A stretch of 411 nt of DNA, taken from assembly GCF_003334335.1 (NCBI RefSeq), contig NZ_QOWQ01000194.1. One strand, 5' to 3'. Under the pieces are notes generated by a model. It did not search any database, had not been told where the DNA came from, and saw only the letters and a list, made by a program, of their open reading frames with translations. Both the position numbers and the translations under genes were made by a program. The first letter of the stretch is position 1. Every line of letters starts with the position of its first letter. This stretch comes from Escherichia coli (GTDB taxonomy: Bacteria > Pseudomonadota > Gammaproteobacteria > Enterobacterales > Enterobacteriaceae). Positions 1 to 411 of this stretch are shown here, piece by piece.

Positions 1-21
1 ATTGTGAAGTTAGTCACAAAA
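1..21. promoter_or_regulatory. Candidate CRP (cAMP receptor protein) binding site; core TGTGA-N6-TCACA at 3-18
   Basis: Seen in sequence: TGTGA at 3-7, 6-bp spacer agttag at 8-13, TCACA at 14-18. Both half-sites match the established CRP consensus with the canonical 6-bp spacing; the right flank is A-rich rather than T-rich. The left flank of the full 22-bp site runs off the window start. The target promoter and its orientation cannot be determined. Confidence 0.5.
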
Positions 22-42
22 AGAAGAAAGTCAAATAATCAA

Positions 43-72
43 ATTGTGCTTAACTGTTTACATCAGCACAAT
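43..72. repeat. Perfect 8-bp inverted repeat ATTGTGCT / AGCACAAT with 14-bp spacer
   Basis: Seen in sequence: 43-50 attgtgct and 65-72 agcacaat are exact reverse complements; spacer 51-64 is taactgtttacatc. No T-tract follows on either strand, so it is unlikely to be a terminator. It could be a protein-binding operator or an RNA hairpin. Confidence 0.6.
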
Positions 73-78
73 CTGATG
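61..78. repeat. Perfect 6-bp inverted repeat CATCAG / CTGATG with 6-bp spacer, overlapping the right arm of the 43-72 inverted repeat
   Basis: Seen in sequence: 61-66 catcag and 73-78 ctgatg are exact reverse complements; spacer 67-72 is cacaat. It shares bases 65-72 with the previous inverted repeat, so the two structures or sites are mutually exclusive. Confidence 0.55.
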
Positions 79-98
79 ACCATTGAATGACCATTGAA
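77..98. repeat. Perfect tandem direct repeat, 2 x 11 bp (tgaccattgaa tgaccattgaa)
   Basis: Seen in sequence: 77-87 and 88-98 are identical 11-mers in head-to-tail arrangement. An 11-bp period is about one helical turn, which places the two copies on the same DNA face; this is the arrangement used by direct-repeat-binding regulators such as OmpR/PhoB-family response regulators. No specific regulator is identified. Confidence 0.7.
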
Positions 99-133
99 GG
101 ACGCACTAAATTATTTTCAGCAATCCCTCAGCC

Positions 134-256
134 TACGAAAATTCTGCATCCCCTGAATGTTTAATTTACACTCTTTTTATGCAATTATTCTTTCGACTAT
201 AAAAACACCACTATCTCATGTATGACCTTGGGGAGCGTGCCGTCTCCCCGTTTTTT
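134..256 (+). ncRNA. Candidate small RNA, copy A (5' end not determined; 3' end at the intrinsic terminator)
   Basis: Inference: a non-coding region ending in a strong intrinsic terminator, with a duplicated paralogous unit downstream and a 13-nt block (134-146) perfectly conserved between copies. No convincing sigma70 -35/-10 pair was found; TATAAA at 198-203 and TAAATT at 107-112 are weak candidates, so the start coordinate is a placeholder. I could not match the sequence to any sRNA I can recall (Spot42, CyaR, McaS, OmrA/B, RyhB, RprA, MicF and others were compared from memory). Confidence 0.3.
230..256 (+). terminator. Rho-independent (intrinsic) terminator: 6-bp GC-rich stem, 8-nt loop, 6-T tract
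   Basis: Seen in sequence: GGGGAG 230-235 pairs with CTCCCC 244-249 (five G:C pairs and one A:T); loop cgtgccgt 236-243; g250 then tttttt 251-256. The - strand has no T-tract after the hairpin (it is followed by aaggtcat), so the terminator is oriented for + strand transcription. Confidence 0.6.
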
Positions 257-304
257 CGCTTACAGTTTCATGACGACTTTCAGTTTCAGGAATCAGCAGT
301 TACC

Positions 305-331
305 ATGCAATACGAAAATTCTGTATTGCAT
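305..331. repeat. Perfect 9-bp-arm palindrome ATGCAATAC-N9-GTATTGCAT, present in unit B only
   Basis: Seen in sequence: 305-313 atgcaatac and 323-331 gtattgcat are exact reverse complements; spacer 314-322 is gaaaattct. It overlaps the unit-B copy of the conserved 13-mer (311-323). The equivalent left arm in unit A (cagcctac, 129-136) does not pair with gcatcc. It could be a dimeric-regulator operator or a 5' stem-loop of RNA B. Confidence 0.6.
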
Positions 332-411
332 CCGCGCCCTCATCTCAATATCTTTGTCGCCGGATAAAAATAACTATCAACCACAAGTATCATGCTCTCG
401 GGGAGCACGCA
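311..411 (+). ncRNA. Candidate small RNA, copy B (paralog of copy A; 3' end lies beyond the window)
   Basis: Inference from the tandem duplication: the conserved 13-mer is at 311-323, the conserved A-rich block at 362-370, and the start of a terminator-like 5' stem arm GGGGAG is at 400-405 (ggggagcacgca, cut by the window end). The matching CTCCCC arm and T-tract would lie just past position 411. Confidence 0.25.

What the first reader, a model, noticed from the sequence alone, without database searches (positions are those of the whole stretch)
1..411. Whole window is non-coding: a long, structured intergenic region
No frame on either strand is open for more than about 50 codons, and those that are open cross the terminator hairpin or lack a ribosome-binding site. 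A region of at least 411 bp with no coding sequence, dense in regulatory-looking repeats and containing duplicated terminators, is atypical for compact bacterial genomes. Such regions are a common home for sRNA genes, type I toxin-antitoxin loci or cis-regulatory leaders.
Basis: seen in the sequence. Interest (0 to 1): 0.3.

Follow-up and report, generated by a model that had tools for sequence, protein, structure and literature searches.

The report
Non-coding control region upstream of eib
The window is non-coding DNA from a rare E. coli prophage, lying upstream of an immunoglobulin-binding adhesin (eib) gene; it holds a conserved CRP-type regulator site and terminators that point away from the adhesin gene, which makes it a useful but fairly ordinary regulatory region.

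Summary
The window is non-coding. It is 411 nt of an 807-nt gap between a tail-fibre-assembly gene (DUF4376) and an Eib/YadA-like adhesin gene in lambdoid E. coli prophages. Both genes are on the minus strand. The sequence occurs in 27 of 5,426 complete genomes and in no species-representative genome.

No ORF keeps its frame or length across 16 copies. Substitutions show no codon periodicity, + strand ORFs lack ribosome-binding sites, and no ORF matches a PHROGs or NCBIfam family. One detail is wrong: + frame 3 is open for 82 codons.

The duplicated terminators are real. T1 (229-256) and T2 (from 400, cut by the window end) close a diverged ~170-nt tandem duplication, and both face the + strand, antisense to the flanking genes.

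Diversity is 6-11 times below synonymous sites of tfa in two islands (1-146 and 287-406). It is neutral in between, where T1 lies; T1 is degenerate or deleted in 11 of 16 copies.

The best-supported element is a perfect CRP-type palindrome (3-18). Its position, ~255-277 nt from the eib ATG, is kept in five otherwise unalignable Eib upstream-region types.

Most likely this is a cis-regulatory region of the eib moron, plus terminators for a divergent non-coding transcript. An sRNA role is possible but unshown. No Rfam family matches, including AsxR and AgvB. Interest is modest.

The parts
1..411 (.). Non-coding segment of the 807-nt gap between tfa (DUF4376, minus strand, beyond the window's right end) and eib/YadA-like adhesin (minus strand, beyond the left end). 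Window = L001 8001-8411.
   Evidence: context; no annotated feature; no coding signal
3..18 (.). Perfect CRP-type palindrome TGTGAagttagTCACA, centred 264.5 nt upstream of the eib ATG
   Evidence: 1 perfect match against 0.02 expected. Half-sites invariant in 16/16 copies. A CRP-like site at the same distance (centre 255-277 nt from the ATG) in four other, otherwise unalignable Eib upstream-region types; shuffles 6, 0, 85 and 7 of 5000. Invariant columns TG.GA-N6-TCA.A plus GTAA.
1..146 (.). Constrained island 1, which continues leftwards without a break to the eib start codon. Nucleotide diversity 0.008, against 0.090 at tfa third codon positions.
38..77 (.). Imperfect inverted repeat ATCAAATTGTGCT-N14-AGCACAATCTGAT, invariant in all copies. 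It forms a perfect 13-bp helix only as minus-strand RNA (G.U in place of A.C).
76..97 (.). 11-nt tandem repeat ATGACCATTGA x2. Copy number is polymorphic: 2 copies in 6 of 16 loci, 1 copy in 10 of 16.
134..149 (.). Box 1, TACGAAAATTCTGCAT (TACGAAAATTCTGTAT in most copies). Conserved; function unknown.
87..256 (+). Unit A of the diverged ~170-nt tandem duplication, ending in T1
   Evidence: A vs B z = 6.6, 0/500 shuffles; 117 identical columns of 196
147..286 (.). Variable, apparently unconstrained middle (diversity 0.10-0.19) with two haplotypes, types I and II. This window is type I.
229..256 (+). T1: Rho-independent terminator-like hairpin GGGGAGCGTGCCGTCTCCCC plus T6 (dG -12.5 kcal/mol). 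Degenerate in the type II haplotype (-2.7) and absent from deletion copies.
213..329 (.). 117-nt segment deleted in 5 of 16 copies, including P-EibA. It removes T1, box 2 and the 305-331 inverted repeat, so these are dispensable.
257..411 (+). Unit B of the tandem duplication. It continues to L001 8426, which is window position 426, outside the window.
305..331 (.). Inverted repeat ATGCAATAC-N9-GTATTGCAT enclosing box 2 (TACGAAAATTCTGTAT, 311-326)
287..406 (+). Constrained island 2 (diversity 0.00-0.04), which ends in the T2 hairpin. A weak homologue sits next to tfa in beta-type Eib loci.
400..411 (+). 5' arm and loop of T2 (GGGGAGCACGCACTCCCC plus T6, complete at L001 8400-8423; dG -11.6). 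Present in 16/16 copies; cut by the window's end.

Best explanation
The window is the distal part of the non-coding upstream control region of a prophage 'moron' that encodes an Eib (YadA-like, immunoglobulin-binding) trimeric autotransporter adhesin.

Shown here:
- It is non-coding.
- It lies between tfa and eib, both on the minus strand.
- It contains a perfect CRP-type palindrome whose position relative to the eib start is conserved in all five Eib upstream-region types.
- Two sub-regions (1-146 and 287-406) are far less diverse than synonymous sites of the neighbouring gene.
- Three hairpin-plus-T-run terminators (T1, T2, T3) all face the + strand, away from eib and towards the tail-fibre genes.

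Inferred mechanism:
- cAMP-CRP, possibly with another factor at the invariant GTAA 9 nt away and with the known activators IbrAB, binds about 265 nt upstream of the eib ATG. It activates or de-silences transcription of eib in this AT-rich (39% G+C) acquired DNA.
- The same site may also drive a divergent + strand non-coding transcript.
- The + strand terminators stop that divergent or antisense transcription before it runs antisense into the phage tail-fibre genes.
- T1 and its surroundings (147-286) are a decaying duplicate of the T2 module and are dispensable.
For: - Context and synteny in every copy.
- Non-coding status.
- CRP-type site: perfect match against 0.02 expected. Half-sites invariant in 16/16. 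Same position in the beta, gamma, delta and epsilon gap types, which nhmmer aligns only over the ~165 nt nearest eib. Positional coincidence seen in 6, 0, 85 and 7 of 5000 shuffles. Invariant columns cluster at TG.GA-N6-TCA.A plus GTAA within a 59%-identity alignment.
- Constraint: diversity is 0.008 (window 1-147) and 0.016 (331-411), against 0.090 at tfa third positions and 0.027 at first and second positions of the same loci. Fine profile.
- Terminators: 5 found against 0.9 expected, all on the + strand. Energies. T2 is kept in 16/16 and has a homologue against the tfa stop in beta-type loci. Gamma-type loci have an analogous + facing terminator.
- Literature: Eib proteins are highest in LB and lower in two media with 1-2% glucose, and are induced in static and stationary culture (PMC5450701, PMC4352079). 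IbrAB activates eib (cited in PMC7649339). eibG with 168 bp of upstream DNA is expressed from a plasmid (bioRxiv 10.64898/2025.12.25.695649), so the window is distal regulatory DNA and not the core promoter.
Against: - No CRP binding or transcript data exist.
- Promoter geometry is unresolved. No -10 hexamer sits at a canonical class I or II distance on the eib side. On the + side it fits only in the beta and gamma types.
- A site about 265 nt from the ATG needs either a long (~200 nt) 5' UTR or action at a distance.
- The 168-bp construct shows the window is not required for expression from a multicopy plasmid.
- Low diversity could partly reflect recent recombination or gene conversion among the several copies per genome, rather than selection. 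The high-identity block also includes the tfa 3' half and the first codons of eib.
- The second half-site of the palindrome is degenerate in three of the five types.
Confidence: 0.55

Rival explanations
1. The + strand encodes one or more trans-acting small RNAs, tandemly duplicated. They would start near the CRP-type site or at the TATAAA/GATAAA boxes 25-30 nt before each hairpin, end at T1 and/or T2, and regulate host or phage mRNAs, as other prophage moron-site sRNAs do.
For: - All strong terminators face the + strand, although both neighbours are on the minus strand.
- Constrained island 2 (window 287-406) ends at the T2 hairpin, and diversity rises right after it. That is the classic footprint of an sRNA 3' module.
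- A T2-like 3' module is shared with beta-type loci while the upstream body differs. This recalls the conserved-3'/variable-5' design of AsxR and AgvB (PMC4104026).
- The first + strand terminator lies 200-290 nt from the palindrome in the alpha-I, alpha-deletion, beta and gamma forms.
- -10-like hexamers sit at class-II-compatible offsets on the + side in the beta and gamma types.
Against: - No Rfam family matches at E <= 1 over the whole gap, while the same search finds AsxR, AgvB and STnc100 in a control locus.
- The only promoter-like site in this alpha type (TAGTCA-17-AATAAT) puts the palindrome at about -35.5, which is not a CRP-activating position.
- T1 is degenerate or deleted in 11 of 16 copies.
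- The single units do not fold better than shuffles.
- No covariation is available, and no significant pairing with the eib leader was found.
- There is no expression evidence.
Confidence: 0.25
2. The sequence has no function of its own. It is a mosaic-boundary homology block that has spread recently among Eib prophages by recombination. The terminators and palindromes are relics of an older arrangement, for example the end of a leftward operon into which the eib moron was inserted.
For: - The high-identity block is not limited to the gap. It runs from the first 30-160 nt of eib to at least 340 nt into tfa.
- There are several copies per genome (median 3), which allows gene conversion.
- The middle of the window is neutral, exists as two haplotypes, and is deleted in 5 of 16 copies.
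- The element is rare: 0.5% of E. coli genomes, about 10 IMG/VR contigs, and no species-representative genome.
Against: - Within one and the same block, diversity alternates sharply: low to window 146, neutral 147-286, low 287-406, neutral after 407. It is 6-11 times below tfa synonymous sites in the low parts.
- Copies in one genome are not homogenised: L032 and L034 differ.
- The palindrome and the T2-type terminator persist in much more diverged upstream-region types where the flanks are unalignable.
Confidence: 0.15
3. The window encodes small proteins: either the 49-aa ORFs called in some phage records, or a type I toxin-like or leader peptide (the 22-aa hydrophobic ORF at 157-225 just before T1).
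For: - Phage records annotate hypothetical proteins here.
- The + strand is relatively open.
- A hydrophobic 22-aa ORF ends 4 nt before the T1 hairpin.
Against: - The annotations contradict each other between records in strand and position, and PGAP calls nothing.
- ORF lengths and frames change between copies: 36/57/78/109 aa; 49/69 aa or absent; 91/47 aa; 22/24/31/69 aa.
- There is no codon periodicity (11/13/11), and the indels are not multiples of three.
- There is no SD and no family match.
- The mini-ORF lies in the neutral, dispensable part of the window.
Confidence: 0.03

Closest known systems
Phage 'moron' transcription units (e.g. lambda lom/bor; reviewed in PMC3594210), specifically the eib morons of prophages P-EibA/C/D/E (GenBank AF151091; Sandt & Hill 2000)
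   Same: An accessory surface-protein gene sits after the tail-fibre genes of a lambdoid prophage, with its own upstream non-coding region and a downstream stem-loop. It is expressed in the lysogen. The window matches the P-EibA record at 90% over 72% of its length.
   Different: The upstream region is unusually long (807 nt) and carries terminators that face away from the moron gene. In AF151091 only a stem-loop outside the window is annotated. In the literature I could read, no element inside the window has been described.
The pap (P-pilus) regulatory region of uropathogenic E. coli, where one CRP site far upstream (about -215 from papBA) lies between divergent promoters (from my own knowledge; not checked here)
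   Same: An adhesin gene in AT-rich acquired DNA, with a single strong CRP-type site more than 200 bp from the adhesin gene, and a possible divergent transcript on the other side.
   Different: There are no GATC/Lrp phase-variation sites and no divergent regulatory protein gene here. CRP binding and the promoters are untested.
Prophage moron-site sRNAs AsxR and AgvB (Rfam RF02703, RF02702; Tree et al. 2014, PMC4104026)
   Same: Units ending in Rho-independent terminators, oriented antisense or convergent to neighbouring prophage genes at a moron insertion site. A conserved 3' module with a variable upstream part, and multiple related copies.
   Different: There is no sequence or structure match, although the control locus is detected. 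The site differs (end of the tail operon, not downstream of PR'), the putative RNAs would be longer, and no Hfq or expression data exist.
Conserved boundary (linker) sequences between exchangeable modules of lambdoid phage genomes (from my own knowledge)
   Same: A highly conserved stretch flanked by much more divergent gene segments: Eib proteins 39-68% identical and Tfa 70-99%, with the gap at 88-99.5%.
   Different: Such linkers are usually short and lie at gene boundaries. Here the conservation is patchy within 800 nt and tracks recognisable regulatory motifs.

Membership tests
Protein-coding gene / small protein | ORF conserved in frame and length among homologous copies | tested here: not met
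   every ORF changes length or frame between the 16 copies
Protein-coding gene / small protein | Codon-position bias of substitutions, and indels in multiples of three | tested here: not met
   35 fixed differences fall 11/13/11; indels are 11, 2, 2 and 1 nt
Protein-coding gene / small protein | Ribosome-binding site and membership of a protein family | tested here: not met
   no SD before any + strand ORF; minus-strand SD-like motifs lie inside hairpin stems; no PHROGs or NCBIfam hit below E = 0.04
Rho-independent (intrinsic) terminator | G+C-rich stem-loop immediately followed by a T/U run | tested here: met
   T1 at 229-256 (-12.5 kcal/mol, T6); T2 at L001 8400-8423 (-11.6, T6); T3 at L001 8529-8552 (-11.6, T7). 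All on the + strand. The reverse strand has no T run.
Rho-independent (intrinsic) terminator | Conservation of the hairpin among copies | tested here: inconclusive
   T2 and T3 stems are kept in 16/16, and the T3 loop varies while its stem is kept. T1 is degenerate in type II (-2.7 kcal/mol) and deleted in 5 of 16. There are no compensatory changes.
Rho-independent (intrinsic) terminator | Actual termination of transcription | not testable with these tools
   Needs Term-seq or in vitro transcription
cAMP-CRP binding site | Match to TGTGA-N6-TCACA | tested here: met
   perfect match at 3-18; 0.02 expected even allowing one mismatch
cAMP-CRP binding site | Conservation of the site in homologous regulatory regions | tested here: met
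   invariant half-sites in 16/16. The same position is kept in four further upstream-region types (0-2 mismatches; shuffles 0-85 of 5000). Invariant columns are TG.GA-N6-TCA.A.
cAMP-CRP binding site | Centre at an activating distance (-41.5, -61.5, ...) from a promoter | tested here: inconclusive
   there is no clear -10 at a canonical distance on the eib side. The + side is compatible in the beta and gamma types only. The TSS is unknown.
cAMP-CRP binding site | CRP binding and crp/glucose dependence | not testable with these tools
   Only circumstantial: Eib is lower in glucose-containing media (PMC5450701)
AsxR / AgvB prophage anti-sRNAs (RF02703, RF02702) | Match to the family covariance model | tested here: not met
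   no hit at E <= 1 in the whole gap. Positive control: AsxR 88 bits and AgvB 41 bits in the Sakai Sp5 prophage.
Trans-acting sRNA gene (generic) | Own promoter, intrinsic terminator, and a conservation island bounded by the terminator | tested here: inconclusive
   The terminator and the island ending at T2 are met. The promoter is not established. No structure signal is seen for single units.
Trans-acting sRNA gene (generic) | Detected transcript | not testable with these tools
   No RNA-seq data were available. No paper found describes one.
Type I toxin-antitoxin locus | Conserved small hydrophobic toxin ORF with an SD, plus an overlapping antisense RNA, or a match to a known family (hok/sok, ldr, ibs/sib, tisB, shoB, zor) | tested here: not met
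   the mini-ORF is not conserved and has no SD; no Rfam hit; no family. A real Hok/Gef gene lies 6 kb away, outside the window.
Phage moron | Accessory gene between or after conserved phage genes, with its own promoter and terminator | tested here: met
   Position after the tail fibre and tfa genes in every copy. A downstream stem-loop is annotated in AF151091. An own promoter is inferred from the 168-bp plasmid construct (bioRxiv 10.64898/2025.12.25.695649). The promoter itself was not mapped.
Cis-regulatory leader RNA (riboswitch or attenuator) | Lies in the 5' UTR of the regulated gene and matches a known leader family, or shows alternative terminator/antiterminator structures on the sense strand | tested here: not met
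   The terminators are on the strand opposite to eib. There is no Rfam leader. The window starts 255 nt upstream of the ATG. Whether any of it is transcribed with eib is unknown.

The most novel reading that the evidence does not exclude
The CRP-type site is a bidirectional switch. It co-activates the Eib adhesin gene and a divergent, previously undescribed prophage sRNA of about 200-400 nt, ending at T1 or T2. That sRNA's conserved 3' module (window 287-423) would be shared across Eib prophage types while its body varies. This would be a new family of moron-linked riboregulators tying adhesin expression to carbon status.
Probability: 0.15. Interest if true: 0.55.

Novelty: new member of a known kind. 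Interest (0 to 1): 0.3.

Why it matters
[quoted passage not shown] Their expression is strongly condition-dependent: static versus shaken culture, medium, and IbrAB. In the papers I could read, no cis element has been defined.

A position-conserved CRP-type operator and two constrained non-coding islands give concrete targets for mutagenesis. They could explain catabolite and growth-phase control. The + strand terminators point to a possible divergent non-coding RNA.

Practically, the result also shows that the 'hypothetical proteins' annotated in this gap in several phage records are gene-caller artefacts.

Tried and rejected
- Rfam, window and whole gap: only chance-level hits (snoRNAs, E >= 1.8). 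A positive control shows the search works for prophage sRNAs.
- Plasmid collection: no match.
- PHROGs and NCBIfam with seven conceptual ORFs: nothing below E = 0.04.
- Folding single units as RNAs: not better than shuffles. The whole gap is mildly better on both strands, so this does not point to either strand.
- Pairing of a putative + strand RNA with the eib leader: the first run timed out. The second gave an unconstrained full-length duplex no better than 37 of 100 shuffles, which is uninformative.
- Unit C (the T2-T3 interval) as a third repeat unit: unrelated, z about 0.
- Type I toxin or leader peptide before T1: rejected because its start codon, residues and length are not conserved.
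- Search for the element outside E. coli: two patterns against 100,044 species-representative genomes gave no match.
- Test for the two islands occurring separately: they are always linked, in about 10 viral contigs.
- Promoter geometry around the palindrome: no consistent -10 at canonical CRP distances, so the direction of control is left open.
- Original papers of Sandt & Hill 2000 and Sandt et al. 2002: not held, so I could not check what they wrote about the conserved upstream sequence.
- I did not use the large protein-homology searches. The frame and periodicity evidence already settles the coding question.
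Full report
**Where the window is**

The 411-nt window (39% G+C) matches chromosomal prophage DNA at 99-99.8% identity.
- It is found in 27 of 5,426 complete E. coli genomes, with 71 places and a median of 3 per genome.
- It also matches induced phages PhiR5_2 (97%) and PhiR5_1/PhiR12 (87%), and the 2000 GenBank record of prophage P-EibA (90% over 72% of the window).
- It has no plasmid match.

In strain 2015C-3121 (locus L001) the window is 8001-8411 of an 807-nt gap (7747-8553). The gap lies between a DUF4376 tail-fibre-assembly gene (tfa) and a YadA-C-terminal-domain adhesin of the Eib family. Both genes, and the whole late/tail operon, are on the window's minus strand.

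The order tail fibre, tfa, gap, eib, ORF-156 recurs in every copy examined. The window is therefore 255-665 nt upstream of the eib start codon.

**Is it non-coding? Yes, but not for the reason given**

Shuffled sequences of the same dinucleotide content have a longest open run of 70 +/- 17 codons, so ORF length is uninformative here.

The comparative evidence is decisive:
- PGAP annotates nothing in any genome.
- Phage records carry mutually contradictory 'hypothetical proteins': two 49-aa ORFs on the + strand in PhiR5_2, and 41- and 55-aa ORFs on the minus strand in PhiR5_1 and PhiR12_1.
- Across 9 and then 16 aligned copies, each ORF changes length or frame through an 11-nt repeat insertion, small indels and a 117-nt deletion.
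- The 35 fixed differences between the two haplotypes fall 11/13/11 on codon positions, and the indels are 11, 2, 2 and 1 nt.
- No + strand ORF has a Shine-Dalgarno sequence.
- No translation matches a PHROGs or NCBIfam family.

**Anatomy**

On the + strand the gap holds three hairpin-plus-T-run terminators:
- T1: window 229-256, -12.5 kcal/mol.
- T2: L001 8400-8423, -11.6 kcal/mol. Only its 5' arm and loop (400-411) are inside the window.
- T3: L001 8529-8552, abutting the tfa stop codon.

Five terminator-like sites were found against 0.9 expected, all on the + strand. On the minus strand the same hairpins have an A run before them and no T run after. They are therefore oriented antisense to both neighbours.

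T1 and T2 close two units of a diverged ~170-nt tandem duplication: A at 87-256 and B at 257-426 in window coordinates. The alignment gives z = 6.6, with 0 of 500 shuffles as good. The T2-T3 interval is unrelated to these units.

Other features:
- A perfect CRP-type palindrome, TGTGAagttagTCACA, at 3-18 (1 match against 0.02 expected).
- An imperfect 13-bp inverted repeat at 38-77.
- An 11-nt tandem repeat at 76-97.
- A 16-nt box, TACGAAAATTCTGYAT, at 134 and 311. The second copy lies inside a 9-bp inverted repeat at 305-331.

Both strands of the gap fold somewhat better than shuffles (z = -3.5 and -2.8, from 20 shuffles). The single units do not.

**Conservation**

Loci that share the window have gaps 88-99.5% identical. 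Their Eib proteins are only 39-68% identical and their Tfa proteins 70-99%. However, the high-identity block also covers the first 30-160 nt of eib and the 3' half of tfa, so I used tfa as an internal yardstick.

Nucleotide diversity over 16 loci:

| Region | Diversity |
|---|---|
| tfa third codon positions | 0.090 |
| tfa first and second codon positions | 0.027 |
| Proximal gap | 0.016 |
| Window 1-147 | 0.008 |
| Window 148-330 | 0.104 |
| Window 331-411 | 0.016 |
| Distal gap | 0.083 |

The 20-nt profile puts the boundaries at window 146/147, 286/287 and 406/407. The second low-diversity island ends inside the T2 hairpin.

The variable middle exists as two haplotypes:
- Type I (5 loci, including this window) has a strong T1.
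- Type II (6 loci) has a degenerate T1 at -2.7 kcal/mol.
- Five further loci, including P-EibA, lack window 213-329 altogether.

T1, box 2 and the 305-331 repeat are therefore dispensable. T2 and T3 are present in all 16 copies.

Caveat: with several copies per genome, gene conversion could contribute to the low-diversity patches.

**Comparison with other Eib upstream regions**

Other Eib-like loci have shorter gaps (374-511 nt), which fall into four further types that I call beta to epsilon. A profile of the alpha-type gap aligns to them only over the ~165 nt nearest eib.

Each of these types nevertheless carries a CRP-like palindrome with 0-2 mismatches. Its centre is 255-277 nt from the eib ATG, against 264.5 nt here. 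Such a site falls in that 28-nt window in 6, 0, 85 and 7 of 5,000 shuffles of the four gap types.

In a joint alignment with 59% mean identity, the invariant columns are TG.GA-N6-TCA.A plus GTAA 9 nt further towards eib. This is the strongest evidence for a functional element in the window.

The beta type also has a recognisable homologue of the T2 module directly against the tfa stop. The gamma type has an analogous + facing terminator. An antisense-facing terminator is therefore an ancestral feature too.

**Distribution**

The two constrained islands always occur together, in about 10 IMG/VR contigs. Neither of two diagnostic patterns occurs in 100,044 species-representative genomes. The element is confined to a small set of E. 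coli prophages.

**Interpretation**

The best-supported reading (about 0.55) is that the window is the distal part of the cis-regulatory region of the eib moron. A CRP-family protein would bind at 3-18, perhaps with a partner at the GTAA motif and with the known activators IbrAB. It would control eib and possibly a divergent + strand transcript. The + strand terminators would confine that transcription so it does not run antisense into the tail-fibre genes.

Circumstantial support comes from the literature:
- All Eib proteins are highest in LB and lower in two media with 1-2% glucose, and are induced in static and stationary cultures (PMC5450701, PMC4352079).
- eibG with only 168 bp of upstream DNA is still expressed from a multicopy plasmid (bioRxiv 10.64898/2025.12.25.695649). 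This places the core promoter outside the window and makes the window modulatory at most.

What is not shown: CRP binding, any transcription start site, or any + strand RNA. Promoter geometry is ambiguous on both sides of the palindrome.

**Rivals**

- *A trans-acting sRNA, or tandem sRNAs, on the + strand (about 0.25).* This fits the terminator orientation, the island ending at T2, and the precedent of terminator-ended sRNAs at prophage moron sites (PMC4104026). Against it: the whole gap has no Rfam match at E <= 1, although AsxR, AgvB and STnc100 are readily found in a control locus. There is no convincing promoter, no structure signal and no target pairing.
- *A functionless mosaic-boundary block (about 0.15).* This fits the extension of the block into both genes and the rarity of the element. 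It does not fit the alternating diversity pattern or the cross-type persistence of the palindrome and terminator.
- *Small proteins or a type I toxin (about 0.03).* This is contradicted by all the coding tests. A real Hok/Gef gene exists 6 kb away but is unrelated to the window.

**Verdict**

The feature is a new, uncharacterised member of known kinds: a moron regulatory region, a CRP-type operator and intrinsic terminators.

Its interest is modest. It gives a testable handle on Eib regulation and a candidate divergent non-coding RNA, but nothing here would greatly surprise a specialist.

Noticed in passing
L001 1989-2129 (minus strand), about 6 kb from the window: A Hok/Gef family (type I toxin) gene lies between a second YadA-like adhesin gene (L001 445-1638) and a tail-tip-fibre pseudogene. 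This prophage end therefore carries two adhesin morons and a toxin gene.
   Followed up: no
window 76-97: The 11-nt unit ATGACCATTGA is present twice in 6 of 16 loci and once in 10 of 16, on all three haplotype backgrounds. That suggests recurrent slippage or recombination. It changes the spacing inside constrained island 1.
   Followed up: partly
window 213-329: A 117-nt deletion in 5 of 16 loci (P-EibA, KY176, 2013C-3033 and two contigs of IMG genome 643348545) has ATC microhomology at both ends. It derives from the duplicated form, because it keeps both pre-terminator TATAAAAA and GATAAAAA boxes.
   Followed up: partly
L001 7990-7993 (window -10 to -7); alignment A3: A GTAA motif 9 nt on the eib side of the CRP-like palindrome is invariant in all five Eib upstream-region types. 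It may be a second protein's site or a promoter element.
   Followed up: partly
window 38-77: This inverted repeat forms a perfect 13-bp helix only as minus-strand (eib-sense) RNA, with a G.U pair where the + strand has A.C (-16.5 vs -11.4 kcal/mol). That is a weak hint that eib-sense transcripts, such as late-operon read-through, may matter.
   Followed up: no
L002 8004-8153 and 8207-8356; L004 2701-2826 and 2957-3124; L005 2800-2925 and 3056-3223: Phage GenBank records annotate 'hypothetical proteins' in this gap on different strands and at different positions in closely related phages, while PGAP annotates none. These are almost certainly gene-caller artefacts.
   Followed up: yes
L001 7850-7887 (outside the window, 104-141 nt upstream of the eib ATG): A perfect 11-bp inverted repeat, GAAATTCCGAA-N16-TTCGGAATTTC, is invariant in the arms in all 16 copies and is annotated as a stem_loop in AF151091. 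It lies in the part of the gap shared by all Eib types, so it is a likely 5' UTR or promoter-proximal element of eib.
   Followed up: no
L014 and L020, gap positions ~436-498 (next to the tfa stop): Beta-type Eib loci carry a homologue of the T2 module (GATAAC..ATAAAC..GGGGAGCATCCGCTCCCC plus a T run) directly against the tfa stop. In the alpha type, an extra ~130 nt carrying T3 separates T2 from tfa.
   Followed up: partly
L001 8440-8465 (outside the window): A hairpin built on AAGGAG/CTCCTT keeps its stem, or lengthens it to 8 bp in L010 and L008, while the loop sequence differs. On the minus strand it contains AAGGAGATG, but the 26-aa ORF that follows has no supporting evidence.
   Followed up: no
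L049 1923-2233 (E. coli O157 Sakai prophage Sp5, control locus): Rfam finds STnc100 (208 bits) on the + strand abutting AsxR/AgvB on the minus strand, between stx2B and ECs_1207. This served as a positive control only.
   Followed up: no
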